A stretch of DNA of 64,000 bases from an uncultured virus (IMG/VR IMGVR_UViG_2671180412_000004) (IMGVR_UViG_2671180412_000004); one strand, 5' to 3'; positions 1-62,957 are shown, counted from the first letter of the stretch. Translations and numbers: made by a program. Notes: a model not told the origin generated them from the sequence alone.

Positions 1-284
1 GACCGGACTGCGATACCGCGAGTGAGCGGTTTGCTAAAGAGATGTGAATCGATACTCAAAGTGGAATTTTCTTCCAGCTGACCATCACTGAGAGTGAATG
101 TAACAACAGCAACGGGATCGCCAGGTGCAGGGTTACCTTCAAACTGGGCACCTTGTCCGGTCATCAACCAGCGCAGGCTGGCCCCTGTGTCCAGTGCACA
201 TTGTACCGCGAAGTCGTAGGAGATGGTGCCGCGCGCGTAGCGGTTCTGAAGGGAACTGGCGGCAATATTGAGGTGCCGCGCAAG
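1..284 (-). pseudogene. cI: 5'-truncated 186/P2-type CI repressor fragment, runs off the left edge
   Basis: Manual minus-strand translation gives LARHLNIAASSLQNRYARGTISYDFAVQCALDTGASLRWLMTGQG, which aligns with the intact CI proteins at 4975-5556 and 36536-37102. There is no start codon and the N-terminus is replaced by terminase DNA. Confidence 0.8.
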
Positions 285-763
285 AATGCCAAGTCCACCG
301 TGGCCGCCATGCTGGCTAACTGGTTTCTGGTGATGGAGAAGGGCCAGCAGGATATCTACACGGCTGCGGTGAGCCGGGATCAGGCCCGAATCGTGTTCGA
401 CGATGCCCGCCAGATGTGCCTGCTGTCAAAACCGCTAAAAAAGCGCGTCAGTATTCAGGCGCATAAGGTCATTTTCCCGAAGAGCAACAGCCTGTTAAAG
501 CCGCTGGCGGCAAAACGGCCACCATTGAGGGGACTAACCCCAGCTTGGCGATTGTCGATGAATACCACCTTCACCCGGATAACGGCGTTTATTCCGCGCT
601 TGAGCTGGGTATCAAACCCAACAAGAAGAAGTCTTCCAACAAGATTGACCCAGCAGTATCAGCGCTAATGGCAATTGGAACATTTCAGGCTGAGCATGAG
701 GATTTTGTATTTGAGACGAGTGTGAGCCATAAAAAAAGGTTGGCGAGATTTAACGGTATCTGA
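267..763 (+). pseudogene. Broken HK97/lambdoid-type terminase large subunit
   Basis: Walker A-like IEVPRKNAKST, then a frameshift near 515 into ATIEGTNPSLAIVDEYH (Walker B). The sequence then jumps straight to the C-terminal KIDPAVSALMA motif, implying a large internal deletion. Confidence 0.85.
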
Positions 764-927
764 TAGATGGTAAAACGACAAATACAACGTATTATCGGAC
801 CATGGGCGTGATTATTTTGGCGTCCGCTAGAACCAATTTTGGAAGGAAGTGACTAAGCATAAAATGAGCTTGTTGATAATATTTTTATGAAAAAAATACC
901 AAAAATCAATGTATTAAATGGTTAATG

Positions 928-954
928 AATCAGGCACACGATGTGTGCCTGATT
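928..954. terminator. Perfect 12-bp-stem hairpin downstream of the TIR gene
   Basis: aatcaggcacac-gat-gtgtgcctgatt, 3 nt past the TIR stop codon. Confidence 0.6.
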
Positions 955-957
955 ATA

Positions 958-1836
958 TCAGTTAGTTTGTCTAATTAATCTTCTCGAACGGAGCCTTTTA
1001 GCGCCGCCGTAACTACTAGATAAGTAATTTATTGGCCGTTTAAGAACTTCGATTGATTTTCTTAATTCAGAAAGATTTATATCTGTCGAAAGCTCCAATT
1101 CAAGCACTGTTGTTTCCAGATCCTTTAGTCTATCCACGGCATCACTAATGACGTCTGGCAATTCTCCTGAAAGATCTTTATTAACATTGGTTAAAATATA
1201 ATCTAAATAATCTTTAGGTAAAATTGCTTCAGGAGAGCGCAACAGTTGATGATTGGTTCGGCTAAGATCTAATAATTCTTCAAAGATTTTAGAGAATCTC
1301 TCTAGATCTGCTGATTTTCCTGTGCCTTGTTTAGTTGCTGGCTGCTCAACTACCTCTTGAGGAATATCCTTCAAATTTTGCTCTAAATTTGGCCACCAAA
1401 CTTCAAATATCTTACTTAACCTCTCATTATCAAGGGTCTGCTCACCACAGGAGGTGTTGATGGACATCATCAGTTTATAGATGTCATCTTTTTCATGCCG
1501 AGTTGACTGATATTGTAAGAGTGGTCCATTGACATCTGATGGATTCATTCGAAATAGAAAAGGGCTGACCTTGCTTTTATCAACACTTTTTCCTAATGCA
1601 CCAGCTTCAAAATTGATCCATGGTGCGTGAATATTCTGTTTTGTAAGACAAATAATACCATAAGATGATTTATCAAGTTCTGTCGCTATGTCACTGGACC
1701 ATCTGGTCCCTTTGTCAATATCTTCTGAAGAAACATAAGGCTCAACGGCTTGAATAACACTAGGTATCCAGCCCCTTAGCACTTTTGCAACACGATGACT
1801 TGTATCGCCAGACCAACTTATGAATACGTTCATCAA
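958..1836 (-). CDS. TIR-domain protein, candidate anti-phage
   Basis: N-terminal VFISWSG...EDIDKGTRW...GIICLTKQNIHAPWINFEAGAL with the catalytic-position Glu; helical C-terminus; AT-rich. Confidence 0.85.
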   Translation of the reverse strand: MMNVFISWSGDTSHRVAKVLRGWIPSVIQAVEPYVSSEDIDKGTRWSSDIATELDKSSYGIICLTKQNIHAPWINFEAGALGKSVDKSKVSPFLFRMNPSDVNGPLLQYQSTRHEKDDIYKLMMSINTSCGEQTLDNERLSKIFEVWWPNLEQNLKDIPQEVVEQPATKQGTGKSADLERFSKIFEELLDLSRTNHQLLRSPEAILPKDYLDYILTNVNKDLSGELPDVISDAVDRLKDLETTVLELELSTDINLSELRKSIEVLKRPINYLSSSYGGAKRLRSRRLIRQTN

Positions 1837-1975
1837 GAATCCTGCTTTTGTAAAATTGGGAGGTGTGTAGCAATGGCAAGGATATTTACAAAGATACTCC
1901 TGATTACTTAACTACGGTATCCTATAGGTATCCTGGCTGAAGTGTCACTTAAAGAATTTTTCTGTAACTCATTGA

Positions 1976-2026
1976 AAAATTTGGTGGCCCCTGCTGGACT
2001 TGAACCAGCGACCAAGCGATTATGAG
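1976..2026 (-). repeat. att core 1: 3' half of tRNA-Ile2(CAU), ileX/ileY type
   Basis: Reverse complement reads CTCATAATCGCTTGGTCGCTGGTTCAAGTCCAGCAGGGGCCACCA; the identical 51 bp recur at 34469-34519; homology ends at the anticodon loop. Confidence 0.95.
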
Positions 2027-2121
2027 AACCATGTTAAAACATGTAAATTCAATGGTTTGATTTGAAATCAATGAGATAAAAAATCAATATCCACCAAAGT
2101 TGGCCAATAATCTAAAGTTTG

Positions 2122-2140
2122 TGCGACACTTTTGCGACAC
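2122..2140. promoter_or_regulatory. Integrase arm-type site (TGCGACAC direct repeat)
   Basis: tgcgacacttttgcgacac; an identical copy at 34388-34406 lies inside the other end of prophage 1. Confidence 0.75.
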
Positions 2141-3939
2141 TAGAACGACTTTAACGCAGGGTGTAGTACAAGCCTTTCTATCCTGTATTGATCTAATCCG
2201 CTATGTAATGCCGCTTTAATTAGGAGATTATCACTGACCGTTTGCACCCATTGCTGTTCATTAGCAAGATTGTTATGTGCTGCGCCTCTGTAACGCGCAT
2301 TTAAGATCGAACCAACCTTACTCCATAGTTCAACAGGAAGTTTAAGCCAGTGATCAATGAAATTGTCGGGGTCAATATAATTCATAATATCTATATTAGA
2401 ATATAATCCAGCTTCATTGGAAGTACCAATCAGTAACTTTTTAAAATAGTCTATATTAGTATCTAATGCTTCAAGTATTTCATTAGCATAAATGGGATAC
2501 CTTTGAATTTTTGCTGTTTTTCTACATTTTCGTATATGGTCAACGATTTTGTTAATGTAATCTCTGTATGAGTCGCTTATCCAGTACATATGTGAATATG
2601 AACGCTCGTATACATCATCCATGAATGGATCGGGATTTAATGGTTCAGGGAGTAACAAATCTTTTTCTAAAAGAGTGTCAATGTAATTTATTTGAGCGTT
2701 AAATAAATCGTCAAAACTATATTTAATCTCTTTTTTTTCAGAGAGCATATAAGACAAGCAGTAGCTGTGCATTATTTCTCCTATGTCTGTCATTGTATTT
2801 TCTTTAAACTTATCAAACATTTCAACAATGGCTGACCTTACATTTGCGCTCTCTTGATTATCAAAGTTAATTATTGTTAGCCAAGGTGGGTTATCAAACT
2901 TCTGAATAAAGAACTTTGATACACCTAGAGACTTTATGATTTCTTCTTTTGGATAATCACCAGTTTTAATTATTTTGGCAGTTAACTCGAAATCTAAGAT
3001 ATCGCTTCTTAAATCCATGTCATTATACTTGCGATAAAATGCTATTCTTTTTTTTGTCGGTTCATCTAATGCAGGTTGGTGGGCTTCGTCTTGTTGTAAG
3101 ATAATTGCATATTGAATATAGTCTTGTGGGATTTCTTCTATATCATCAGTACTTATGTTCCCCATTTTATGTTCAATGTTAACTATGCAAAAGAAATTGA
3201 AGAGCGCTTTCATTGCTATAGTGTGTTTTAAATGAATAGGCTCAAGACACTCAAGAAGTCTGTGACAATCATTGATTAAATATTTCAATATTCTCAGTGA
3301 CTTACAATTTGTTTTTAAAAATGCACCAATTATTACTGGCTTTATGGCGTTGAAATTATTTAATTTGAATTTTTCACTAAAGAAAACACCTGCTGCATCA
3401 TCAATTTGAGGTTCTATTTGTATTGTGTGACCAATGATTTTCTCTTTGGTTTTGATGAAATCATTATGAGTTTCTTTGTCATGAGCTAGTATGATTACTT
3501 TACATTGATGATGTTCAATATACTGATTTATAACGCCAAATATTTCTTTGTTCGACATTGGGCAACGCTCAAGGTCATCAAAGATTATTACTTTATTCCG
3601 ATCTACAGTTAGTTTGATTAGTGGACTAAGTATATTTCCGGCTAAGGAGCCAGCGCCGAAGGTAACTCCATTCAGTTCGGCAGATAGATCCTTTGTTATG
3701 TCTAGTAACTTCTTGGCAAGGTTTTTGCCAGGAAACATTTTAGCAAATACTGTGTTATAAACCTCTTGGGAGTCGCTGATTCCGAATAAACTTACATGAC
3801 ACTGTAATTCATGAGGTATTGCATTCATAACTTGGAACGTCTTTCCTGAACCCCACTCACCAGTAACTAGAACAGCAAAACCCGGGGCGTCCAGTCCTAG
3901 ATAATAATCTAAATATAGTTCTAGGTTAGTTTTGTTCAT
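2140..3939 (-). CDS. KAP-family P-loop NTPase
   Basis: Walker A VTGEWGSGKT and Walker B IIFDDLERC; ends with KEKIIG KAP-type motif region; start overlaps the int stop (ATGA); very AT-rich. Confidence 0.85.
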   Translation of the reverse strand: MNKTNLELYLDYYLGLDAPGFAVLVTGEWGSGKTFQVMNAIPHELQCHVSLFGISDSQEVYNTVFAKMFPGKNLAKKLLDITKDLSAELNGVTFGAGSLAGNILSPLIKLTVDRNKVIIFDDLERCPMSNKEIFGVINQYIEHHQCKVIILAHDKETHNDFIKTKEKIIGHTIQIEPQIDDAAGVFFSEKFKLNNFNAIKPVIIGAFLKTNCKSLRILKYLINDCHRLLECLEPIHLKHTIAMKALFNFFCIVNIEHKMGNISTDDIEEIPQDYIQYAIILQQDEAHQPALDEPTKKRIAFYRKYNDMDLRSDILDFELTAKIIKTGDYPKEEIIKSLGVSKFFIQKFDNPPWLTIINFDNQESANVRSAIVEMFDKFKENTMTDIGEIMHSYCLSYMLSEKKEIKYSFDDLFNAQINYIDTLLEKDLLLPEPLNPDPFMDDVYERSYSHMYWISDSYRDYINKIVDHIRKCRKTAKIQRYPIYANEILEALDTNIDYFKKLLIGTSNEAGLYSNIDIMNYIDPDNFIDHWLKLPVELWSKVGSILNARYRGAAHNNLANEQQWVQTVSDNLLIKAALHSGLDQYRIERLVLHPALKSF

Positions 3940-5689: not shown

Positions 5690-5911
5690 ATGCGTCCCAA
5701 CATTACAATCGTGATCCCAGATCCATACATCCCTCTGGATGAGTATTGCCGTCGTACTGGCATGTCCAGAAGTACAGCTGAAAACCTGATTTCATACGGA
5801 AAACTTCCTATTAAGCCTAAAGGAGCACAGAAAAAAGGGCTGGTTGAAGTGAACATGGCCGCCTTAACCGTGATGGCGTTAAGCGAATGTGATGTTTCGC
5901 TTAACGCGTAA
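5690..5911 (+). CDS. cox: Cox/Apl excisionase-repressor
   Basis: PYIPLDEYCRRTG wHTH; divergent from cI; AGGAG RBS. Confidence 0.85.
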   Translation: MRPNITIVIPDPYIPLDEYCRRTGMSRSTAENLISYGKLPIKPKGAQKKGLVEVNMAALTVMALSECDVSLNA

Positions 5912-5941
5912 TTCATCGTACGGATTAGGGAGGAGCTAACA

Positions 5942-6445
5942 ATGTTTGATTATCAGACTTCTAAACATGCTCACTTTGATGCAGCTTGCCGAGCGTTTGC
6001 GCTATCGCACAATCTGGAAGATGTCGCCGCTGCCGTTGGTATGCGTCCTCAGATCCTACGCAATAAGTTGAACCCGATTCAACCGCATCGCCTGACCTGT
6101 GACGAGCTACTGGCTATTACCGATTACACCGAAGATGCACGTTTACTGGATGGGATGCTGGGGCAGATTAACTGCCTCCCGTCCGTTCCGGTCAATAACG
6201 CCACTGAAGCGAACATGCAGTTTTGCGCATTAAGCGCCACTGCAAACGTGGGTGCGATCGCTGGGGAAGCCGTTTCAACTGAGCACATGACCGCTGCACG
6301 CCGCACACAAATTCTTGATCGTGCCCGTGATGCCATCCGTTCCCTTTCCGTTCTGGCTTACACCGTTGAAAGCCGCCTCCAGTCTGCGCCGGTTCTTGCT
6401 GCTGCCGTCGATATTGTGACTAACAGCGCCAGCAGCATGATGTGA
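5942..6445 (+). CDS. cII: CII (186 CP76-like) establishment activator
   Basis: MFDYQTSKHAHFDAAC...LRNKLNP motif and position. Confidence 0.9.
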   Translation: MFDYQTSKHAHFDAACRAFALSHNLEDVAAAVGMRPQILRNKLNPIQPHRLTCDELLAITDYTEDARLLDGMLGQINCLPSVPVNNATEANMQFCALSATANVGAIAGEAVSTEHMTAARRTQILDRARDAIRSLSVLAYTVESRLQSAPVLAAAVDIVTNSASSMM

Positions 6446-6454
6446 GGGTTAACC

Positions 6455-6649
6455 ATGAAAGCTTTCGTCACCTATCTGAAAAAAGAATCTCCGGCCATGC
6501 AACTGGCCAGCGGATCAAATGGTTGGCTTGAACTGCCAAATGGCCAGCGCTGGAACCCTGGGCACCAGTACAAATTTAATGCCCGCTCGTCTCGTCGTCC
6601 ATGGTGGTTTCGTTTGTTCGGGATTATTAGGGGGCGTTATGGCCATTAG
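6455..6649 (+). CDS. Small early protein (Fil-like)
   Basis: LKKESPAMQL...GW...GQRWNP, similar to 38047-38271; position after cII. Confidence 0.6.
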   Translation: MKAFVTYLKKESPAMQLASGSNGWLELPNGQRWNPGHQYKFNARSSRRPWWFRLFGIIRGRYGH

Positions 6650-7067
6650 CGAAAAGCAGCAGGAAATTGGCCTGAAGTGGCTTGGGAATATCCGCCGTAA
6701 ATACTGGAGTGAGAAAAGCGAAGCCGCCGAATGGTGGGACAAATTAACACCAGAATGGCGCGGGGTTGTTTTACATGCGGCCGCAGTAGCTTCCGGAATG
6801 GACGTTTTCAAAGCCCATCTGAGCAAATGCTACTGGTCAGAGTTATTCGAACGCCTGGACTACCGGGCAATGATTCAGCTGCGCCAGGGCATATCCAGGG
6901 CGCGTCTGACGTTTGAAGGGTTCGGGAATCTGAGCGACAGCGATTTCTCAAAGCGCAGCGCTAACCGCCAGGTGAAAAAGGCACATCCGATCCACAGCAG
7001 TAATGGCGTGCAGATGATTATCGCGCCTCATATCGTTCATAAGATGCAACAGCAGGAGAATCATTAA
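6639..7067 (+). CDS. Hypothetical early phage protein
   Basis: ORF coupled to neighbours in the early operon. Confidence 0.6.
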   Translation: MAISEKQQEIGLKWLGNIRRKYWSEKSEAAEWWDKLTPEWRGVVLHAAAVASGMDVFKAHLSKCYWSELFERLDYRAMIQLRQGISRARLTFEGFGNLSDSDFSKRSANRQVKKAHPIHSSNGVQMIIAPHIVHKMQQQENH

Positions 7068-7468
7068 TGTCCATTATCTCTGTAAACGCCAAAGAACTGG
7101 GACAGGAGCTGGCTGCGTGGGGTGTTCCACACAATTACGCCATTCTCTTTCTTGAGAAAAGCACCGTTAAAAATGGCCGTGTGGCCTTACATCCGTTTTT
7201 CTTTAACGACACCGAGCACATGACAAACAAACGCCACTGGCTGGCTGTAAATGTTGCGTACTGGTGCTGCGTCTATCGTGAGGCGGAAAGCCAGTACCAG
7301 CAGGTTGAAGCGCTGGCCAGTATTCGTTCCATGTATTACATCGCCGGGTCATTGGGCGCTGGGGAAATCAAAGCGCTGATCCAGGAGTGGTGGCGCAATA
7401 CATACGAGCTTCACCAGATACCCGCGCCGAGCTACTCAGCCGCGCCCGTTACCGTCTCTTTCCACTAA
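7067..7468 (+). CDS. Hypothetical early phage protein
   Basis: TAATG overlap with the previous ORF; AGGAG RBS. Confidence 0.65.
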   Translation: MSIISVNAKELGQELAAWGVPHNYAILFLEKSTVKNGRVALHPFFFNDTEHMTNKRHWLAVNVAYWCCVYREAESQYQQVEALASIRSMYYIAGSLGAGEIKALIQEWWRNTYELHQIPAPSYSAAPVTVSFH

Positions 7469-38764: not shown

Positions 38765-38991
38765 TGGCTGATTCAATGGACCTCGCACAGCTGCGCGAAC
38801 AGGAAGATCGTGAGCGCCATATCAACAATGCCCGCGCCAAAGTGCCGGGCGTTTCCCGTGTTCTATGTGCGGAGTGTGATGCTCCGATCCCGCCAGCGCG
38901 CCGCCGCGCTATTCCGGGCGTGCAGTGCTGTGTGACCTGTCAGGAAATCGCAGAGTTAAAAGGCAAGCACTACAACGGAGGCGTTGTATGA
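38764..38991 (+). CDS. TraR/DksA C4 zinc-finger protein
   Basis: CAECDAPIPPARR...CVTCQ. Confidence 0.9.
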   Translation: MADSMDLAQLREQEDRERHINNARAKVPGVSRVLCAECDAPIPPARRRAIPGVQCCVTCQEIAELKGKHYNGGVV

Positions 38992-39845
38992 GCACTATCC
39001 TGAAATGGGCGGGAAACAAAACCGCCATTATGTCCGAACTGAAAAAGTATCTCCCAGCTGGCCCGCGATTGGTTGAACCTTTCGCGGGTTCCTGCGCTGT
39101 GATGATGGCAACAGACTATCCTCATTATCTTGTCGCAGATATCAATCCAGATTTAATTAATCTGTATCGTTCTATTGCAGAAGATACAGAAAACTTTATT
39201 AATCTTGCTAAGGCGGTTTTTGAAAGTTTTATTGTCGCTGAAAATTATTATCGTGTGCGTGAAGCGTTTAACCACGATCCGCAATTAGACCGACTGCACC
39301 GTGCTGTATATTTTCTTTATCTAAACCGCCATTGTTATCGTGGGTTATGCCGCTACAACCTAAGCGGTGTATTCAACGTCCCTTTCGGTAATTATAAAAA
39401 GCCGTATTTTCCTGAGAGTGAAATCCGCGCATTTGCTGAGCAAGCGAAGCGAGCCACCTTTGTTTGCGCTAACTACGAAGAAACGTTGTCTTTGTTGCAG
39501 ACGGGCGATGTGATTTATTGCGACCCTCCTTATGACGGGACTTTTAGTAATTACCACACTGCCGGTTTTACAGAGGACGATCAGTATCGCCTGGCGTCTA
39601 TTCTTGAGCGCCGCGCGTCAGAAGGCCATCCGGTCATAGTTTCAAACAGTGACACCTCACTTACTCGCTCCCTTTATCGGAATTTCACCCATCACCGCCT
39701 TACCGCAAACCGCAGTATGGGCGTTGCGGCTGGTGACGGTAAGTCTGCCGTGGAAATCATTGCTACTTCAAAATCGTGTCACTGGCTTGGATTTGATCCT
39801 GCAACCGGACCTGACTGCAGCGTGAAGTATGAGGTGCAGGCGTGA
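38988..39845 (+). CDS. dam: Dam-family DNA adenine methyltransferase
   Basis: LKWAGNK, LVEPFAGS, YCDPPY motifs. Confidence 0.93.
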   Translation: MSTILKWAGNKTAIMSELKKYLPAGPRLVEPFAGSCAVMMATDYPHYLVADINPDLINLYRSIAEDTENFINLAKAVFESFIVAENYYRVREAFNHDPQLDRLHRAVYFLYLNRHCYRGLCRYNLSGVFNVPFGNYKKPYFPESEIRAFAEQAKRATFVCANYEETLSLLQTGDVIYCDPPYDGTFSNYHTAGFTEDDQYRLASILERRASEGHPVIVSNSDTSLTRSLYRNFTHHRLTANRSMGVAAGDGKSAVEIIATSKSCHWLGFDPATGPDCSVKYEVQA

Positions 39846-42257: not shown

Positions 42258-42342
42258 CAGTGCTGGCCATTCATCGAGTAACGTCATTTTCGACTGTGCT
42301 GCAGGTGAATTAAAACGAAATCAGTAGTTGAGGAAAACAGAA

Positions 42343-43038
42343 ATGACCTATCTGGGAAGCAAGGCCGCAAGCGGTGTTTTTCAAAAGATTATTGCGGAAA
42401 TGCCGCCGCATGATACCTACATTGAGACGCACCTGGGCGGTGGCGCTGTCATGTTGCGTAAGCCACCGGCCCGCCGTAATTGGGGCATTGATATTGATCC
42501 CCTGACGGTTGAAGCGTTCTGCCAGGGCAATGCTGATTTCCTTGATAACGTGGGCGATAGCCTTTTTATCGATGTTGCCGATGCGGTGCAGTTTTTAAGG
42601 GACTTCGATTTTTCCTCTGCCGGTCGTGTGCTGGTTTACGCGGACCCTCCTTATTTGCATGAAACGCGGACCAGTGCCGCGCGGTATCGCAATGAATATA
42701 CCGTAGCCGATCATGAGCGGCTGCTGGCCTGCCTTAAAAGCCTGCCAAAAAATGTCAGTGTAATTTTGTCCGGCTATCCGTCAACGCTTTATGACGAACT
42801 GTTAACGGGCTGGCGCCAGAAAGAATTTCAGGCCATGACGCGCGGCGGTGTGCGCACAGAGAAAATCTGGATGAATTACCCGGAGGGGAAAGCCTACTCG
42901 CACACTTTCGCGGGTAAGGATTACAACGACAGGGAGCGCATCAAACGCAAGGCGAAGCGCTGGCGCGAAAAATTCGCAGCACTACCACACCCGGAGCGGC
43001 TGGCAATAATGACCGCCCTGAGCGAAGTTGATGATTAA
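42343..43038 (+). CDS. Second DNA adenine methyltransferase (D12-class-like)
   Basis: YLGSK, YIETHLGGGAV (SAM motif), YADPPY, ILSGY motifs. Confidence 0.85.
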   Translation: MTYLGSKAASGVFQKIIAEMPPHDTYIETHLGGGAVMLRKPPARRNWGIDIDPLTVEAFCQGNADFLDNVGDSLFIDVADAVQFLRDFDFSSAGRVLVYADPPYLHETRTSAARYRNEYTVADHERLLACLKSLPKNVSVILSGYPSTLYDELLTGWRQKEFQAMTRGGVRTEKIWMNYPEGKAYSHTFAGKDYNDRERIKRKAKRWREKFAALPHPERLAIMTALSEVDD

Positions 43039-57368: not shown

Positions 57369-57966
57369 CCTGCTTCCTCCTGGTTCATCGCCGCTTGAGC
57401 GCCGCCTGGCTCAGACCTGCAGCGGAATTTCCGATCTGCAGGTGCCGCTGCGGGATTTATGGAACCCGGCAACATGCCCGGTCAAGTTTCTGCCGTATCT
57501 GGCGTGGGCCTTTTCGGTTGATCGCTGGGACGAAGGATGGGCGGAGAGCGTGAAGCGCCGTGTGGTGCAGGATGCTTTCTATATCCATCAGCACAAGGGC
57601 ACAACCAGTGCTGTGCGGCGTGTGGTGGAGCCGTTCGGCTTTCTGATCCGCATTATTGAATGGTGGCAGACCGGCGAGGCGCCGGGCACGTTTCGCCTGG
57701 ATATCGGGGTGCAGGACCAGGGCATAACAGAGGAAACCTATCTGGAGCTGGAGCGCCTGATTGGTGACGCCAAACCCTGCAGCCGGCATCTGATCGGCAT
57801 GTCCATAAACCTGCAGACGAGCGGACCATATTTCGTTGGGGCTGCCACTTACACCGGCGAAGAAATCACGATTTACCCGTATATCAACGAAACCATCATT
57901 TCCGGTGGCTCTGCCTACGAGGGCGGCGCCGTCCATGTTATCGACACAATGAGAGTGAACCCATGA
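57361..57966 (+). CDS. I: Tail protein gpI
   Basis: LWNPATCP...LPYLAWAFSVDRW. Confidence 0.94.
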   Translation: MNSLLPPGSSPLERRLAQTCSGISDLQVPLRDLWNPATCPVKFLPYLAWAFSVDRWDEGWAESVKRRVVQDAFYIHQHKGTTSAVRRVVEPFGFLIRIIEWWQTGEAPGTFRLDIGVQDQGITEETYLELERLIGDAKPCSRHLIGMSINLQTSGPYFVGAATYTGEEITIYPYINETIISGGSAYEGGAVHVIDTMRVNP

Positions 57967-59351
57967 GCGCAAAATTTTATACCCTGCTGACGGATATTGG
58001 CGCGGCGAAACTGGCAAGCGCTGCCGCGCTCGGTGTGCCGCTGAAAATTACCCAGATGGCGGTGGGGGATGGCGGCGGCGTGCTTCCAACTCCCAGCGCA
58101 CAACAGACGAAGCTGGTTTCCGAAAAGCGGCGCGCTGACCTGAACATGCTTTACATCGATCCGCAGAACAGCAGCCAGATCATTGCTGAGCAGGTGATTC
58201 CTGAAACTGAGGGCGGTTGGTGGATTCGTGAAGTTGGGCTGTTCGATGAAACGGGCGCGCTGATCGCAGTGGGAAACTGCCCGGAGAGCTACAAACCGCA
58301 GCTGGCAGAAGGGAGCGGCCGCACGCAAACAGTGCGCATGGTACTGATTACCAGCAGCACCGATAACATTACGCTGAAAATTGACCCGTCCGTAGTGCTG
58401 GCTACCCGCAAATATGTGGATGACAAGGTGCTGGAACTGAAGGTGTATGTAGATGAGCTGATGGCGGCGCATCTTGCTGCAGCTGATCCGCATACGCAAT
58501 ATGCGCCAAAAGCCAGCCCGACGTTTACCGGCACCCCAAAAGCCCCGACTGCAGCTGCAGGTAACAATACCACTCAACTTGCCACAACTGCGTTTGTTCA
58601 GGCGGCTCTGATCGCCCTGGTGAATGGTGCCCCGGCTACACTGGACACGCTGAAAGAAATTGCTGCGGCTATCAACAACGATCCTAATTTCAGCACCACC
58701 ATTAATAACGCGCTTGCACTCAAAGCCCCACTGGCAAGCCCGGCCCTGACCGGAACGCCGACAGCCCCCACGGCTGCGCAGACTGTCAACAATACGCAAA
58801 TAGCCACTACTGCTTTCGTAAAATCAGCTCTGGCTGCGCTTGTTGGCTCATCACCTGCGGCGCTTGATACCCTGAACGAGCTGGCGGCGGCGTTAGGAAA
58901 CGATCCTAACTTTGCAACCACCATGACAAATGCGCTGGCAGGCAAGCAGCCGCTGGATAGCACGCTGACAACTTTGTCTGGAAAAACCGCAGATGGGATT
59001 ATCGAATACCTTCGTTTGGGGGAAGCGGCGAAAAGGACTGTTGGAACCGGTGCAAATCAGATACCGGATATGACTGCATTCACATCTGATCTGCGATGGT
59101 TCAAATTACCTAGCGGCCATATTGTGCAGGTTTTTTCGGTTGATGTTTACAGCTCGGATGTAGAGGGAACGCCTGCGGTTTATCCAATAGCTTTCCCTTA
59201 TTCGTTACTGGCTATATCCGCCATATGGGTAGACCCAACGCAGACAGAAGCACCGACGTACAAAATCATCGGTGGTGATCGAACGCTCGCAAAAATTAAA
59301 ACATCAAAGGCAGGAAAGTACGGGACCATGATTATAGCCATCGGTAAATAA
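57963..59351 (+). CDS. H: Tail fibre gpH: constant region plus currently expressed variable tip
   Basis: P2 H N-terminal domain, duplicated LDTLxELAAALxNDPNF module; crossover site at 58999-59024 is in frame. Confidence 0.95.
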   Translation: MSAKFYTLLTDIGAAKLASAAALGVPLKITQMAVGDGGGVLPTPSAQQTKLVSEKRRADLNMLYIDPQNSSQIIAEQVIPETEGGWWIREVGLFDETGALIAVGNCPESYKPQLAEGSGRTQTVRMVLITSSTDNITLKIDPSVVLATRKYVDDKVLELKVYVDELMAAHLAAADPHTQYAPKASPTFTGTPKAPTAAAGNNTTQLATTAFVQAALIALVNGAPATLDTLKEIAAAINNDPNFSTTINNALALKAPLASPALTGTPTAPTAAQTVNNTQIATTAFVKSALAALVGSSPAALDTLNELAAALGNDPNFATTMTNALAGKQPLDSTLTTLSGKTADGIIEYLRLGEAAKRTVGTGANQIPDMTAFTSDLRWFKLPSGHIVQVFSVDVYSSDVEGTPAVYPIAFPYSLLAISAIWVDPTQTEAPTYKIIGGDRTLAKIKTSKAGKYGTMIIAIGK

Positions 59352-59355
59352 CGTT

Positions 59356-59697
59356 CGTTTGGGAGAAGCGGCAAAAATGGAGGCGGCCACCGCCCAGATC
59401 GGTGCTAATGGCTGGCTATATATTCCCGTTTCTGGCGGCAAAAAAATGCTGCTGCAGTGGGGGCTTTTAACCGGTGCGAGTAATTATTCTTTTAAATTCC
59501 CAATTGCATTTCCCGTAGGTGGTTTATGCCTGGTTGCAATGGCCCATACAACTGATTCCGCTGATGTGAGCATGGTAACTATGACTAATGGATTTATCAG
59601 GGATAAAACCAGCGCGTTTGCTTTGTGCGCCAGAACAGTGAACGGCGTGCAGCAACCTTTTGAACGTAGCGTTTACTGGGTCGCTGTTGGCTACTGA
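59356..59697 (+). CDS. Silent alternative fibre C-terminus (cassette 2)
   Basis: Begins RLGEAA at the site; LQWG...FPIAFP...AVGY. Confidence 0.88.
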   Translation, partial: RLGEAAKMEAATAQIGANGWLYIPVSGGKKMLLQWGLLTGASNYSFKFPIAFPVGGLCLVAMAHTTDSADVSMVTMTNGFIRDKTSAFALCARTVNGVQQPFERSVYWVAVGY

Positions 59698-59708
59698 CGT
59701 CAAAAAAT

Positions 59709-59766
59709 TGTGTGATTACTGACACATGGTAGCTAGATAATTATTTTACGAAACCGCACTTACGAT
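59709..59766 (+). promoter_or_regulatory. Ogr-type late promoter for the chaperone inside the shufflon
   Basis: TGT-N12-ACA at 59709-26; TACGAT at 59761-66, same spacing as pV. Confidence 0.7.
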
Positions 59767-59792
59767 CTGAGTCTCAAACTAAGGAGTGCGTT

Positions 59793-60266
59793 ATGAACTA
59801 TTGGTTTAGCCCTGCAAATAATGCTTTTTACCCCGTAGCTTTAAAGGAGTCTTATGTAAATGCAGGTAGTCTTCCTAATGATTTAATCGAAGTGGAGGAT
59901 AGTGTTTTTAGCGAATTTTCCGCGACGCCACCAGAAGGGAAATTGCGTGGCATTGGATCTGATGGTTTTCCGATCTGGATTGATATTCCCATTGTGGAAG
60001 AAAGCCCGGAACAAATCCAGGCACGCGCCCGTGCTTTGCGGGATGAATTCATCGTCAGTACAGATCGAATGCTTGTTTCTGATTACACTATCAACAATGT
60101 TTTATTAACCTCTGAGCAGCAAGCGGAACTTTTGGATGTAAGGCAAAAGTTTAAAGTTTGGCCTGAGAGTGAGGGATGGCCGCACATAGCGTTGCCTGCG
60201 ATACCTCAATGGATTCTCATTGAGGCAGTAAACAACGGTTACGTAGTAAAAAATTGGCCTGAGTGA
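59793..60266 (+). CDS. Tail fibre assembly chaperone
   Basis: FSPANNAFYP...PEGK...DGFPIWID N-terminus; AAGGAG RBS. Confidence 0.82.
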   Translation: MNYWFSPANNAFYPVALKESYVNAGSLPNDLIEVEDSVFSEFSATPPEGKLRGIGSDGFPIWIDIPIVEESPEQIQARARALRDEFIVSTDRMLVSDYTINNVLLTSEQQAELLDVRQKFKVWPESEGWPHIALPAIPQWILIEAVNNGYVVKNWPE

Positions 60267-60291
60267 AATAAAGCCCGTAAGGGCTTTATTT
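60266..60291. terminator. Bidirectional terminator
   Basis: aaataaagccc-gtaa-gggctttattt. Confidence 0.85.
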
Positions 60292-60321
60292 TTATACAGT
60301 CGGGTTAGCTACAGGATTAAA

Positions 60322-60690
60322 TTAAAACCCTATTGCAAACCACGTAAACATACGGGAATTACCAGGCAGAGTATCGTCAAGGAAAAACTGAGCGTTAACA
60401 CCCGTTTTCGTTGGGTAGCCGATTGAAACAGCTTGCCTTAAAGTTCTATAGATTGGCACATAATCATAATCGGATGCCCTCACGCCTGCGCTTGAATAGA
60501 CGCCGAAGCAGGCCGCAGGAAACGCTACGGGAAAAGTTATATCACACTTATAAGTAGTGCTTGTTACACCTCCCTCCCATCGTCCCCACTGCACCATTAA
60601 CGTAATACCGCCGATTAATGGGAATTTCGCCCAGCCGCTATTAGACAAAACGCCGCTCGCTGCGGCGAGTTTTGCCGCTTCTCCCAAACG
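60322..60690 (-). CDS. Silent alternative fibre C-terminus (cassette 3)
   Basis: RLGEAA...VQWG...FPVAFP...AIGF. Confidence 0.88.
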   Translation of the reverse strand, partial: RLGEAAKLAAASGVLSNSGWAKFPLIGGITLMVQWGRWEGGVTSTTYKCDITFPVAFPAACFGVYSSAGVRASDYDYVPIYRTLRQAVSIGYPTKTGVNAQFFLDDTLPGNSRMFTWFAIGF

Positions 60691-60695
60691 AACGT

Positions 60696-61064
60696 TTAAA
60701 ACCCTATAGCTGTAAACCGTGTTCCGGCATTACTTCTGGTTGAAAAATTTCGCGCCATTACCGATTTACGGGAATCAGTAACAGATTGAGCATCTACCCC
60801 GATAGAGATCGGCACGGTCGAATCTGCCGATCCGGCCGCGGTAAAAATCACGAAACACATTTGAGTTGGAAACGCTATTGGATAAAAAACCTCAATGGAC
60901 GTTCCAGCGGGGATGGAAGTTATTGCCCCGGTTTGAATGATTAACCCATTCGGGAACTTCGCGTAAGAGTTTGCACCCCCTGCAAAATTTGCAGCAAAAA
61001 GCCCCATATCTGGAAGTTGCCCGCTTGATGCACCAACCCCTCTTTTTGCCGCGTCCCCCAAACG
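60696..61064 (-). CDS. Silent alternative fibre C-terminus (cassette 4)
   Basis: RLGDAAKRGVG...QLPDM...YPIAFP...AIGF. Confidence 0.88.
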   Translation of the reverse strand, partial: RLGDAAKRGVGASSGQLPDMGLFAANFAGGANSYAKFPNGLIIQTGAITSIPAGTSIEVFYPIAFPTQMCFVIFTAAGSADSTVPISIGVDAQSVTDSRKSVMARNFSTRSNAGTRFTAIGF

Positions 61065-61076
61065 AACGTTATTTGC

Positions 61077-61436
61077 TTAATAGCCAATGGCTATAAACCG
61101 GAATGACACGTTTGCATTTAACGCATTTAGAACGGCTCCAGCCTGAGATAACTTAACCGCTCTTGTAGTAAAAGTTGAAAGGGTTGCAGGCGCTGCAGAA
61201 CCAAACCCAACGCCAGCATCCTCAGGATTATTATGCGTAACATATACTTGTGCAAACACGGATGGGAACGCGACAGGAAGCGAAGATGTGTAGACCTCTC
61301 CACTACCTGCTGTATTAACACCACCTTGCCCCCATTGAAGAATTAAATTTTTGTTACCACTCATCGGGATTTTGGCCCATCCGTTATAGCCAATAACACC
61401 GCTAACAGCTGGCAGCGTTGCCGCTTCCCCCAAACG
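61077..61436 (-). CDS. Silent alternative fibre C-terminus (cassette 5)
   Basis: RLGEAA...LQWG...LPVAFP...AIGY. Confidence 0.88.
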   Translation of the reverse strand, partial: RLGEAATLPAVSGVIGYNGWAKIPMSGNKNLILQWGQGGVNTAGSGEVYTSSLPVAFPSVFAQVYVTHNNPEDAGVGFGSAAPATLSTFTTRAVKLSQAGAVLNALNANVSFRFIAIGY

Positions 61437-61558
61437 AAGGTTTTTTATCCGCCACGGTCATGATTGTCCGTGTTGGCCATTCTCTGCAGTACAGTCAGAA
61501 ATGACCATGCTCGATAAAATGGTGGCATCATTCACCACTTTTTTAAGGGCGAAAAATC

Positions 61559-62146
61559 ATGCAAATCGGTTACGTGAGGGTGTCAACAAATGACCAAAAC
61601 ACGGCTTTACAACGAAATGCGCTGGAGTGCGCAGGATGTGAGCTGATATTTGAGGACAAAATGAGCGGAAAAACCTCAGATCGGCCAGGGCTAAAGAAGG
61701 TCCTGCGCACACTCTCAGAAGGTGACACGCTGGTAGTCTGGAAGCTGGACAGATTAGGCAGGAGCATGCGACATCTTGTTACGCTGATTGAAGACCTGCG
61801 CGGGAGAGGGGTAAATTTCCGCAGCCTGACAGACAGCATTGACACATCAACTCCAATGGGGCGTTTCTTTTTCCATGTTATGGGCGCCCTGGCTGAAATG
61901 GAACGTGAGCTAATCGTTGAGCGTACCCGCGCCGGGCTGGCAGCGGCCAGACAGCAAGGGCGTATCGGTGGCAGGCGGCCAAAACTGACAGAGCAGCAAT
62001 GGGCGCAGGCCGGGCGACTCCTTGAGGCAGGGGAAAGCAGGAAGCGTGTTGCGCTAATTTTTGATGTGGGTATCTCCACTCTGTACCGTAAATTTCCCGC
62101 GTCTGCCGTGGCGCCATTGTCTGAGCGGTCAGACACCCCTGTATAA
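61559..62146 (+). CDS. Serine DNA invertase (Hin/Gin/Pin/Min family)
   Basis: IGYVRVST catalytic Ser, KLDRLGRS, GGRRPK and C-terminal HTH. Confidence 0.95.
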   Translation: MQIGYVRVSTNDQNTALQRNALECAGCELIFEDKMSGKTSDRPGLKKVLRTLSEGDTLVVWKLDRLGRSMRHLVTLIEDLRGRGVNFRSLTDSIDTSTPMGRFFFHVMGALAEMERELIVERTRAGLAAARQQGRIGGRRPKLTEQQWAQAGRLLEAGESRKRVALIFDVGISTLYRKFPASAVAPLSERSDTPV

Positions 62147-62175
62147 ATGAACATGCTTTCTCATTTATGTAACCT
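62118..62175 (+). promoter_or_regulatory. Ogr-type late promoter upstream of the methyltransferase
   Basis: TGT-N12-ACA at 62118-35; TAACCT at 62170-75, same spacing as pV. Confidence 0.7.
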
Positions 62176-62204
62176 GAAATCAGGCACATAAGAGAGGCAA
62201 AGCT

Positions 62205-62957
62205 ATGCAAAAAGCGGTTATTGGGGCGGCAACGATTTACTGTGGTGACAGTCTGGAAATTTTGCGCGAACTCACTGGCGAATTTGATGCAGTAATTACT
62301 GATCCGCCTTATTCCAGCGGTGGTATGACGCGCAGTGATCGGCAGGCCAAACCCTCAGGGAAGTATGTAGGCAATAACAACTACCATGAGTTTTACGGCG
62401 ATAACAGAGACGTGCGATCCTGGGCGTTCTGGATGACGCAGTGGATGAGTCAGGTTAACCGCCTGGTCAAGTCAGGCGGGTATGCCATGGTTTTCACTGA
62501 CTGGCGGCAGCTTCCAACGCTTACTGACGTTTTCCAGGCTGGCGGTTTTGTATGGCGGGGGCTGATTCCGTGGGATAAAACCCTTTCAACCCGTGCGCCT
62601 CATACCGGTTATTTTCGCCATCAGTGCGAATACGTTGTCTGGGGAAGTAACGGACCATTGCCTAAAAGTCTGCATGGTGGACCCTGGCCGGGTATGGTGA
62701 CTCGCCGGGTTATTCCGTCTCAAAAACTCCATATGACCGGCAAACCGATTGAGCTTATGGAAAGCCTGATTGCCCCCGTTCCCCCTGGAGGCCATATTCT
62801 TGATCCATTTATGGGGAGTGCATCAACTGGCGTTGCCGCGCTGAGGAAGGGATATAAATTTACCGGGATTGAGATGAGCCAGCAGTATTTTGATATCTCA
62901 TGTGAACGCCTGGAAAAAGAAAACGCAGATATCCGCGCGGGCGTATTGTGTGATTAA
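62205..62957 (+). CDS. N6A/N4C DNA methyltransferase (beta class)
   Basis: ITDPPY precedes H...KP and ILDPFMGSASTG. Confidence 0.92.
   Translation: MQKAVIGAATIYCGDSLEILRELTGEFDAVITDPPYSSGGMTRSDRQAKPSGKYVGNNNYHEFYGDNRDVRSWAFWMTQWMSQVNRLVKSGGYAMVFTDWRQLPTLTDVFQAGGFVWRGLIPWDKTLSTRAPHTGYFRHQCEYVVWGSNGPLPKSLHGGPWPGMVTRRVIPSQKLHMTGKPIELMESLIAPVPPGGHILDPFMGSASTGVAALRKGYKFTGIEMSQQYFDISCERLEKENADIRAGVLCD

What the first reader, a model, noticed from the sequence alone, without database searches (positions are those of the whole stretch)
58999..62146. Five-way tail-fibre shufflon in a P2/186-like prophage
Seen: five 26-bp sites read, in fibre orientation, TTATCGAATACC, CGGTAAATAACG, GGGTTTTAAACG, AAGCAAATAACG and GGATAAAAAACC, each followed by TT-CGTTTGGGRGAM. 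Two face forward and three face backward. Each is followed in frame by a different roughly 112-122 aa tip domain (RLG[ED]AA...P[IV]AFP...A[IV]G[YFK]), and a serine invertase lies next door. Known: Mu Gin and P1 Cin switch between two tips, and p15B Min uses six sites. Inferred: any forward/reverse pair can be inverted, so all five tips can be fused to H. Three single-cassette segments plus one double-ended central segment give 4! x 2 = 48 isomers, a combinatorial host-range switch.
Basis: partly seen in the sequence, partly recalled or inferred. Interest (0 to 1): 0.8.

Follow-up and report, generated by a model that had tools for sequence, protein, structure and literature searches.

The report
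Five-tip invertible phage tail-fibre switch
A P2/186-type prophage carries five swappable tips for its tail fibre and a DNA-flipping enzyme that shuffles them, which is a real and apparently active host-range switch but a larger member of an already well-known kind.

Summary
Five 26-bp sites (2 forward, 3 reverse) lie exactly where stated. All have a TT core and a conserved half-site that opens an in-frame tip cassette of 112-122 aa. A serine invertase 77% identical to Mu Gin lies next door.

A breadth-first model confirms 48 reachable isomers and all five tips fusable to H.

The locus appears active in nature. Contigs of four public runs and the nearest genome carry the same cassettes joined in other orders: H fused to B, D before B, and A next to the invertase flank. 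In two isolate runs every cassette is its own contig, and short junction contigs have fractional depth.

The kind is known:
- Min of p15B.
- A three-site P2-like prophage shufflon in EPEC (PMC4272514).
- The Gin-dependent FRphi shufflon, with relatives holding up to six paralogs (PMC13418256).
- Five- and six-cassette arrays that this scan noted earlier in E. coli P2-type prophages.

Two points are added here. Cronobacter phage JK004 has nine such sites. The single chaperone gene in the always-flipping central segment sits behind its own P2-type late-promoter box and before a hairpin terminator.

The parts
57963..59351 (+). Tail-fibre gene H as it reads in this isomer. The constant part runs 57963-59012 (ending GIIEYL) and tip A runs 59013-59351.
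   Evidence: 462-aa ORF. Pfam Phage_tail_fib N-terminal domain at E 6.8e-64, and a weak Gp53-like_C match at 381-454.
58999..59024 (+). Crossover site 1 (forward), at the junction of constant H and tip A.
   Evidence: It matches Mu gix at 19 of 26 positions in register.
59342..59367 (+). Crossover site 2 (forward). Its left half holds the stop codon of tip A.
59356..59697 (+). Silent tip B cassette (113 aa counted from RLG).
   Evidence: Gp53-like_C at 39.1 bits. It lies directly upstream of tfa in 14 of 17 related central segments.
59708..59726 (+). P2-type late-promoter box (TTGTGT-N10-ACA), 66 nt before the tfa start codon.
   Evidence: One of 4 matches in the window against 0.42 expected, with 0 of 100 shuffles reaching 4. 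The other three lie before O, V and FI. The box is kept before tfa in the diverged phage ENT90. The consensus comes from a PMC3931495 passage.
59793..60266 (+). The single tail-fibre assembly (chaperone) gene, inside the central segment.
   Evidence: Pfam Caudo_TAP at E 1.2e-6. PHROG 188, tail fibre assembly protein, at E 6.4e-37.
60264..60295 (.). Hairpin between tfa and tip C, flanked by an A run and a T run. It is probably a two-way terminator.
   Evidence: Free energy -26.6 kcal/mol, z-score -5.65, and 0 of 200 shuffles fold as well. The simple terminator scan did not list it.
60322..60690 (-). Silent tip C cassette (122 aa).
   Evidence: Gp53-like_C at 42.9 bits.
60679..60704 (-). Crossover site 3 (reverse). 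Its left half holds the stop codon of tip D.
60696..61064 (-). Silent tip D cassette (122 aa).
   Evidence: Gp53-like_C at 48.7 bits.
61053..61078 (-). Crossover site 4 (reverse).
61077..61436 (-). Silent tip E cassette (119 aa).
   Evidence: Gp53-like_C at 42.3 bits. It is 98% identical to a forward-oriented cassette in G001 and 90% identical to one in phage JK004.
61425..61450 (-). Crossover site 5 (reverse), the fixed right border of the invertible region.
61559..62146 (+). Gin-family serine DNA invertase.
   Evidence: Resolvase and HTH_7 domains. Matches PDB 3uj3, Gin, at E 2e-90. Identical to Mu Gin at 139 of 181 residues.
62205..62957 (+). N6/N4 DNA methyltransferase lying between the invertase and sheath gene FI. 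It travels with the module but has no shown role in the switch.
   Evidence: Pfam N6_N4_Mtase. The related provirus G002 has neither an invertase nor this gene between tfa and FI.

Best explanation
This is a Min-type multiple DNA-inversion system on the tail-fibre gene of a P2/186-like prophage.

A Gin-family serine invertase pairs one forward and one reverse 26-bp site, cuts both at the shared TT core, and rejoins them. The DNA between the two sites is thereby inverted.

Each cassette begins with the conserved half-site, which encodes RLGEAA. Any cassette brought next to the constant part of H is therefore fused in frame and becomes the expressed receptor-binding tip.

Three cassettes (A, D, E) are single-ended. 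The fourth segment (B-tfa-C) has a tip at both ends. All forward sites lie to its left and all reverse sites to its right, so every inversion flips this central segment.

The one chaperone gene inside the central segment has its own P2-type late-promoter box and is followed by a two-way hairpin terminator. It can therefore probably be expressed in either orientation.

The likely result is a prophage population that releases virions with different tips, which is bet-hedging on host range.

Shown: the sites, frames, domains, invertase family, the 48-state model, and alternative junctions in nature. Inferred: catalysis by this invertase, dependence on Fis, the promoter function of the box, and the effect on host range.
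For: Sites and frames are set out. The invertase is 77% identical to Gin and keeps the N-terminal YVRVSTNDQ serine motif. Site 1 matches Mu gix at 19 of 26 positions in register. The model gives 48 states, every tip can be fused to H, and every inversion includes the central segment.

Natural isomers:
- G001 contig C157 reads H-end, tip X, tip E (forward, 98% identical), tip Y, then tfa and tip B reversed. Its contigs stop at sites.
- In run X7 one contig joins 59010 to 59354, fusing H to B. Tip A there is preceded by the end of tip E.
- In run X2 one contig reads D forward, then B-tfa-C. Loose ends place E and then A, both reversed, before the invertase flank. This state is one of the 48, four inversions from the window's.
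- In isolate runs X9 and X12 each cassette is a separate contig. Junction contigs of 43-50 nt have partial depth (X12: 5.9 and 8.7 against 14.4 for the flank), as a mixed population would give.

Family picture: 23 IMG/VR contigs carry the site. By site count they split as 7 with one, 6 with two, 5 with three, 4 with four and 1 with five. Single cassettes occur on either side of a 1.3-kb central segment.

Published experiments on related systems: in FRphi, long reads show three isoforms, deleting gin locks them, and only one isoform infects (PMC13418256, sections 8 and 32 read). In the EPEC P2-like prophage, three inverted repeats give four variants, checked by PCR (PMC4272514, passages).

Promoter box. 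Hairpin.
Against: - All four runs laid are assembled contigs, not raw reads. Frequencies cannot be measured, and within-sample mixing is inferred from contig breaks and fractional depths. The output listed 30 pieces and left 46 unshown.
- Differences between strains could in part reflect old, fixed rearrangements or exchange of cassettes rather than ongoing flipping.
- H-C and H-E junctions were not seen. H-D in X2 is inferred from a 144-nt contig with exactly the two mismatches expected for the tip-D half-site, and by elimination.
- A Fis enhancer could not be shown. Only one Fis-like 15-mer lines up with Mu gin at +71.
- Overall, TGT-N12-ACA occurs 16 times in the window against 15.6 expected. 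Only the longer TTGTGT form is enriched.
- 14 of the 17 related central segments are near-identical to the window's, so their agreement adds little.
- The simple promoter scan found no more sites than shuffled sequence gave.
Confidence: 0.88

Rival explanations
1. This is a fossil array. The sites and cassettes are relics, and the arrangements seen in different strains were fixed long ago or arose by homologous exchange between prophages. No flipping happens now.
For: Only contigs were available, not reads. Related loci differ in cassette content as well as order: G001 has tips X and Y in place of A, C and D. The module has lower G+C (41-49%) than the backbone (55-62%), as a horizontally moved block would.
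Against: The invertase frame is intact and 77% identical to Gin. All five cores are identical and all five tip frames are open. Cassettes at least 99% alike in most laid pieces stand in different orders in four runs. In X9 and X12 the assemblies break at every site, with junction contigs of partial depth. Close relatives flip in the laboratory (PMC13418256, PMC4272514).
Confidence: 0.07
2. The switch is restricted. Only some site pairs recombine, for example those with the best left halves, so far fewer than 48 isomers and fewer than five tips are ever expressed.
For: The left half-sites are poorly conserved, matching the reverse complement of the right half at only 4-6 of 12 positions. H-C and H-E junctions were not observed. 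In FRphi the isoform shares are unequal at 50/25/25%.
Against: All five left halves were seen joined to a right half other than their own in the window. The tip-A right half was seen with four of the five left halves. Published Gin-family sites also have one weak half; that point is recalled, not tested here.
Confidence: 0.25
3. The chaperone serves tip B only, and the other tips fold without it. The box before tfa would then be a chance match or an operator rather than a promoter.
For: Tip B and tfa travel together in 14 of 17 related central segments. TGT-N12-ACA as such is not enriched in the window. The -10 and -35 scan gave only a 9-of-12 match nearby.
Against: The longer box occurs 4 times against 0.42 expected, and the other three stand before the late operons O, V and FI. 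ENT90 keeps the box 69 nt before its tfa although the surrounding sequence does not align. In JK004 the chaperone follows a different, C-like tip.
Confidence: 0.3

Closest known systems
Min multiple-inversion system of plasmid prophage p15B (Sandmeier, Iida, Arber 1990-92)
   Same: A serine invertase of the Gin/Cin/Hin/Pin family acts on several crossover sites in both orientations inside the 3' part of a tail-fibre gene. Many isomers and several alternative fibre ends result. A passage in PMC6109161 confirms the serine recombinase, the multiple inversions and the variable fibre types.
   Different: Min sits on a P1-related plasmid prophage; this system sits in a P2/186-type chromosomal prophage. 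The six sites usually quoted for Min are recalled, because the primary papers are not held. No p15B sequence was on hand, so homology of the cassettes could not be tested. The 93.8-kb Cronobacter phage JK004 has nine sites and shares tips A (92%) and E (90%), which may be the closer link.
FRphi tail-fibre shufflon of an Enterobacter prophage (PMC13418256; bioRxiv 2025.07.22.666180)
   Same: A constant fibre N-terminus with alternative C-terminal cassettes and gin directly downstream. Heterogeneity is seen in long reads and in public data sets. Deleting gin locks the state, and the isoforms differ in infectivity. The authors note related loci with up to six paralogs (sections 8 and 32 read).
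   Different: FRphi has three isoforms; this locus has five. FRphi's neighbour is a fliC-tldR module; here it is a DNA methyltransferase and then the sheath gene. I could not compare sequences: the FRphi genome was not among my hits, and the extended-data figure is not held as text.
Three-site shufflon in a P2-like prophage of EPEC E2348/69 (Goldberg et al. 2014, PMC4272514)
   Same: A P2-like prophage in which more than two inverted repeats give several coexisting variants and alternative carboxyl termini of one tail protein. The variants were validated by PCR (passages read).
   Different: That locus has three repeats, four variants and three termini. This one has five sites, 48 modelled states and five termini.
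Mu G segment with Gin, and the P1 C segment with Cin
   Same: The invertase is 77% identical to Gin. The sites are 26 bp, and site 1 matches gix at 19 of 26 positions. The crossover lies at the junction of the constant and variable fibre parts, and the invertase gene lies just outside the segment.
   Different: Mu has two sites, two tips and two chaperones (U and U'), all read from the outside promoter (annotation). Here there are five sites, five tips and one chaperone with its own late-promoter box.
R64 shufflon (pilV, Rci)
   Same: Several invertible segments swap the C-terminal end of one adhesin-type protein.
   Different: Rci is a tyrosine recombinase (stated in titles listed); the enzyme here is a serine invertase. 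For this locus 'shufflon' is only a loose label.

Membership tests
Gin/Hin/Cin/Pin/Min (Din) serine DNA invertases | Small serine recombinase with an N-terminal catalytic domain and a C-terminal helix-turn-helix. | tested here: met
   Pfam Resolvase at E 1.7e-51 and HTH_7 at E 3.1e-14. Best solved relative is Gin, 3uj3, at E 2e-90. Identical to Mu Gin at 139 of 181 residues, including the N-terminal YVRVSTNDQ motif.
Gin/Hin/Cin/Pin/Min (Din) serine DNA invertases | 26-bp crossover sites made of two 12-bp half-sites around a 2-bp core that is identical in the partner sites, with the sites in inverted orientation. | tested here: met
   Five sites have a 12+2+12 layout and a TT core in all, with 2 forward and 3 reverse. 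Site 1 matches the Mu gix sequence, read at the annotated G-segment borders, at 19 of 26 positions in register.
Gin/Hin/Cin/Pin/Min (Din) serine DNA invertases | A Fis-bound recombinational enhancer in cis, in known systems inside the 5' part of the invertase gene (recalled). | tested here: inconclusive
   One 15-mer fitting a recalled degenerate Fis motif lies at +71 in both this gene and Mu gin. No second site at the expected spacing was found, and synonymous-site conservation is not raised in the 5' part.
Gin/Hin/Cin/Pin/Min (Din) serine DNA invertases | Inversion actually occurs and depends on the invertase. | tested here: inconclusive
   Alternative junctions are present in contigs of 4 of 4 public runs laid and in G001. 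Dependence on the invertase is not testable with these tools.
Min-type multiple inversion system (tail-fibre 'shufflon') | More than two crossover sites, in both orientations, within one locus, giving overlapping invertible segments. | tested here: met
   Five sites. The model gives 48 states, and each state offers 4 or 6 possible inversions.
Min-type multiple inversion system (tail-fibre 'shufflon') | Several alternative 3' gene ends, each in frame with one constant 5' part. | tested here: met
   All five cassettes open with CGT TTG GGN GAN in the same frame relative to the core and run 112-122 codons to a stop.
Min-type multiple inversion system (tail-fibre 'shufflon') | Sequence homology to p15B Min itself. 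| not testable with these tools
   No p15B record turned up in the collections I searched (I did not look one up by accession), and the primary papers are not held.
R64-type shufflon (Rci) | The recombinase is a tyrosine recombinase. | tested here: not met
   The only recombinase at the locus is a serine recombinase.
P2/186-like prophage (Peduoviridae type) | Gene order Q-P / O-N-M-L ... V-W-J-I-H ... FI, with late promoters carrying TGT-N12-ACA. | tested here: met
   PHROG and Pfam assignments follow that order, together with an integrase, a repressor, a CII-like gene and the A replication gene. Late-promoter boxes lie before O, V and FI. The consensus comes from a PMC3931495 passage. An ogr/B gene lies outside the window and was not looked for.
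Gp53-like_C tail-fibre tip domain (Pfam PF21882) | Score above Pfam's gathering cut-off of 24.9 bits. | tested here: met
   Four of 5 tips pass: B 39.1, C 42.9, D 48.7, E 42.3. Tip A scores 16.8 and does not pass, but it aligns with the others over the invariant P-A-F-P and A-G columns.

The most novel reading that the evidence does not exclude
The central segment is a self-contained expression unit inside the shufflon. It holds one chaperone gene with its own Ogr/B-type late promoter and a two-way terminator. It flips at every recombination event, yet stays expressed and insulated in both orientations. One chaperone would then serve a freely growing library of Gp53-like tips. That could explain how such arrays scale from 2 to 9 cassettes, and how cassettes move between P2-type prophages and a 94-kb phage (JK004), where the box is absent and a different promoter would be needed.
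Probability: 0.45. Interest if true: 0.45.

Novelty: new member of a known kind. Interest (0 to 1): 0.3.

Why it matters
The locus is a clean, compact example of a combinatorial host-range switch. It has five receptor-binding tips that share only 22-36% identity, one enzyme and 2.5 kb of DNA, in a prophage whose relatives turn up in soil, root and food samples.

It does not open a new question, because Min, the EPEC P2-like shufflon and FRphi already establish the principle. It is still useful in three ways:
- It shows that draft assemblies break or freeze such loci arbitrarily. Tail-fibre annotations and host predictions from single assemblies can therefore be wrong.
- It gives a testable idea for how one chaperone can serve many tips.
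- It points to an unannotated nine-site array in a sequenced phage (JK004) as the largest member seen here.

Tried and rejected
- Scan of genome contigs with a 15-base site pattern.
- Pattern scan of 401 species-representative genomes of the family. Only 3 had a match (G001 with 4, G249 with 2, G444 with 1). The site type is therefore sporadic among those searched, and the scan says little about how common multi-site arrays are.
- Fis enhancer search using a recalled degenerate motif and synonymous-site conservation against Mu gin: inconclusive.
- Generic sigma-70 scan. It found 4 promoter-like sites against 4.7 in shuffles, which is uninformative. Its terminator list missed the strong hairpin at 60264-60295, which folding then showed.
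- Papers not held: Sandmeier 1990, Sandmeier 1992 and Johnson 2015. Details of Min such as six sites and its isomer count are therefore recalled only.
- Raw reads: none of the 22 listed runs is kept as raw reads. Isomer frequencies could not be counted.
- Earlier notes of this scan by place and by sequence gave nothing.
- I rejected the reading as an R64-type shufflon because the recombinase class is wrong.
- I rejected the view that the five sites are a chance repeat, because they are exact, in frame and recur in relatives.
- No structure prediction or complex prediction was run. The Pfam assignment sufficed, and I make no binding claim.

Full report
**1. What is in the sequence**

The five sites are real. 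The conserved 14-mer occurs five times in the 64-kb window, always without a mismatch and nowhere else even at two mismatches: twice on the + strand (59011, 59354) and three times on the - strand (60692, 61066, 61438). The shuffle control of that call is weak (1.57 expected at up to 2 mismatches; 4 of 100 shuffles gave at least 5). The 19-nt form is also exact at all five places.

Written as 26-mers, the sites are 58999-59024, 59342-59367, 60679-60704, 61053-61078 and 61425-61450. Each has a variable 12-bp left half, a TT core and a conserved 12-bp right half.

The right half opens a reading frame, RLG[ED]AA, that runs 112, 113, 122, 122 and 119 codons to a stop. The five tips share only 22-36% identity. 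They keep 13 invariant columns, among them P-A-F-P and A-G near the end. Four of the five pass Pfam's cut-off for Gp53-like_C (PF21882); tip A falls below it.

The stop codons of tips A and D lie inside the left halves of sites 2 and 3, and tip E ends just before site 4. The cassettes are therefore packed head to tail.

Between tip B and tip C lie one tail-fibre assembly gene (59793-60266) and a strong hairpin.

**2. Context**

The surrounding genes follow P2/186 order. They are integrase, repressor, CII-like gene, replication gene A, portal, terminase, scaffold, capsid, small terminase, head completion, lysis, tail completion, V, W, J, I, H, then the sheath after the switch.

The switch with its invertase and a DNA methyltransferase has 41-50% G+C against 55-62% for the backbone.

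The nearest provirus record, G002, has the same fibre up to GIIEYL. It then continues with a fixed glycine-rich end, a chaperone and the sheath, with no site, no invertase and no methyltransferase. The module boundary therefore coincides with crossover site 1.

**3. The enzyme and the sites belong to the Gin family**

The 195-aa protein has Resolvase and HTH_7 domains. Its best solved relative is Gin (3uj3, E 2e-90). It is identical to Mu Gin at 139 of 181 residues, including the N-terminal serine motif.

I read the Mu gix sequence from the annotated G-segment borders of NC_000929. Site 1 matches it at 19 of 26 positions in the same register.

A Fis enhancer could not be shown or excluded.

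**4. The combinatorics**

I modelled inversion between any two oppositely oriented sites, keeping the orientation of the two recombining sites and flipping those in between. The search reaches exactly 48 states, at most four inversions from the present one.

- The tip behind H is A, D or E in 12 states each, and B or C in 6 each.
- In every state all forward sites lie left of the B-tfa-C segment and all reverse sites right of it.
- Every inversion therefore includes that segment, and the chaperone gene changes strand at each event.

Deletions between direct sites are assumed not to occur, as in the Gin family (recalled).

**5. Is it active?**

The nearest genome, G001, carries a sister locus on a 2.1-kb contig. 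It reads: end of H, site, tip X, site, tip E (98% identical, but forward and on the H side), site, tip Y, then tfa and tip B reversed, then a site at the contig end. The neighbouring contigs stop inside the first and last sites. This is the mirror placement that the model predicts for a single cassette and for the central segment.

Of the 22 public runs listed for the stretch, I laid four (X2, X7, X9, X12). All are kept as contigs only.

- **X7.** One 3.4-kb contig joins 59010 to 59354, so H is fused to tip B. Tip A is preceded by the end of tip E and followed by 340 letters unlike the window.
- **X2.** One contig reads tip D forward, then tip B, tfa and tip C. Loose ends put the end of E behind C, the start of E behind the end of A, and the invertase flank next to the start of A. 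A 144-nt contig at the H junction has exactly the two mismatches expected for the tip-D half-site. Together this gives H-D-[B tfa C']-E'-A'-invertase, which is one of the 48 states and four inversions from the window.
- **X9 and X12.** Every cassette is a separate contig. Short junction contigs have partial depth (X12: 5.9 and 8.7 against 14.4 for the flank; X9: 17.7 and 20.8 against about 61). In X12 tip A follows the end of D. In X9 tip A abuts the invertase flank.

Across these data the tip-A half-site is joined to four of the five left halves and the tip-B half-site to three. That cannot come from the outermost pair alone.

Limits of this evidence:
- Contigs give no frequencies.
- 46 pieces were not shown.
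- H-C and H-E were not seen.
- Dependence on the invertase is untested.

**6. The family**

The 19-nt site pattern finds 23 IMG/VR contigs in 34 listed stretches. With up to three substitutions, they hold 1 site (7 contigs), 2 (6), 3 (5), 4 (4) or 5 (1). Many are cut at a site, so these counts are lower bounds. The forward/reverse splits vary: +--, ++-, +++-, ++--, +---, +++--.

In GenBank phages, a tblastn search with tip E finds only three records.

- **Cronobacter phage JK004** (93.8 kb, genes unannotated) has nine sites, six in fibre orientation and three reverse. It has at least eight tips, including one 92% identical to tip A and one 90% identical to tip E.
- **Erwinia phage ENT90** (Peduoviridae; the other two records are two entries of this phage) has five related sites with a different base next to the core.

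A tblastn search with tip D finds 76 plasmid records, many of 90-100 kb.

Among 401 species-representative genomes of the host family, 3 have the site pattern.

**7. One chaperone for five tips**

Mu has a chaperone for each tip. Here there is one, and it flips at every event.

The sequence offers an explanation. TTGTGT-N10-ACA occurs four times in the window against 0.42 expected, and 0 of 100 shuffles reached four. All four are on the + strand, 46-85 nt before the start codons of O (49947), V (55539), tfa (59793) and FI (63038).

P2 late promoters PP, PO, PV and PF carry TGT-N12-ACA and depend on Ogr (PMC3931495, passage).

The looser motif alone is not enriched: 16 occurrences against 15.6 expected. 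A fifth, looser copy lies 70 nt before the methyltransferase gene.

ENT90's intergenic sequence does not align with the window's, yet it keeps the box 69 nt before its tfa. JK004, which is not P2-like, has none in its array.

Fourteen of 17 related central segments have an intergenic region nearly identical to the window's and the same tip B upstream. They are too similar to count as independent support.

Downstream of tfa, a hairpin flanked by an A run and a T run folds at -26.6 kcal/mol (z-score -5.65). It would stop transcription from either side.

I therefore propose that the chaperone is an autonomous late gene inside the invertible segment. This is inferred, not shown.

**8. Comparison with what is known**

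The kind is established.

- **Min of p15B.** A serine-invertase system makes multiple inversions that give variable fibre types (PMC6109161, passage). The primary papers are not held, so its six sites are recalled.
- **EPEC P2-like prophage.** Goldberg et al. 2014 showed three repeats, four coexisting variants and three alternative termini, checked by PCR (PMC4272514, passages).
- **FRphi.** The study showed three isoforms by long reads, locking on deletion of gin, and infection through FhuA by only one isoform. It mentions relatives with up to six paralogs (PMC13418256, sections 8 and 32). Its extended-data figure and tables were not seen.
- **Milman et al. 2023.** Tail-fibre genes are listed among the families enriched for programmed inversions (PMC9881135, passages).
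- **This scan.** Earlier notes on other genomes describe five- and six-cassette arrays in E. coli P2-type prophages and judged them larger members of a known kind. I did not re-test those loci.

**9. Verdict**

The locus is almost certainly an active Min-type tail-fibre switch. It is a new member of a known kind, and interest is modest.

The parts that go beyond what I found in the library searches I ran:
- The chaperone's own late-promoter box.
- The rule that every inversion flips the central segment.
- The nine-site array in JK004.

Noticed in passing
L059 plus L057 (Cronobacter phage JK004, MZ188976.1, record 91800-93825 and 1-3300): A nine-site array (six sites in fibre orientation, three reverse) with at least eight Gp53-like tips and one chaperone. 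All genes are annotated as hypothetical. Under the same rules it would allow 8! x 2 arrangements. It shares near-identical cassettes with this P2-type prophage.
   Followed up: partly
L060 plus L058 (Erwinia phage ENT90, NC_019932.1, across the record's start): Five related sites with TTGG in place of TTCG, and two copies of a 1427-bp tip-tfa-tip segment in opposite orientation, about 400 bp apart. This may be a real duplication, or two isomers assembled into one record.
   Followed up: no
window 62118-62957: A DNA methyltransferase gene (62205-62957) lies between the invertase and the sheath gene. A looser late-promoter-like dyad (TTGTCT...ACA, 62118-62135) sits inside the 3' end of the invertase gene. 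The related provirus G002 lacks both genes.
   Followed up: partly
window 38925-39845 and 42328-43038: Two further DNA methyltransferase genes lie in the early region of the same prophage, making three in one 30-kb phage.
   Followed up: no
L023 (G002:C1:30000-38500), fibre gene at 5793-7445 on the minus strand: A sister provirus has the same fibre shaft up to GIIEYL, then a fixed 200-aa glycine-rich end. The module swap falls exactly at the position of crossover site 1.
   Followed up: partly
window 59011-59376, as laid in run X7 (record 17): In X7 the tip-A cassette is followed by 340 letters unlike anything in the window, probably a sixth tip type. The loose end at 61443 shows another cassette end (AIGF-type) that differs from tip D's.
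   Followed up: no
window 59000-61550: The whole invertible region has 41-49% G+C against 55-62% in the flanking phage genes, as expected for a horizontally exchanged module.
   Followed up: yes
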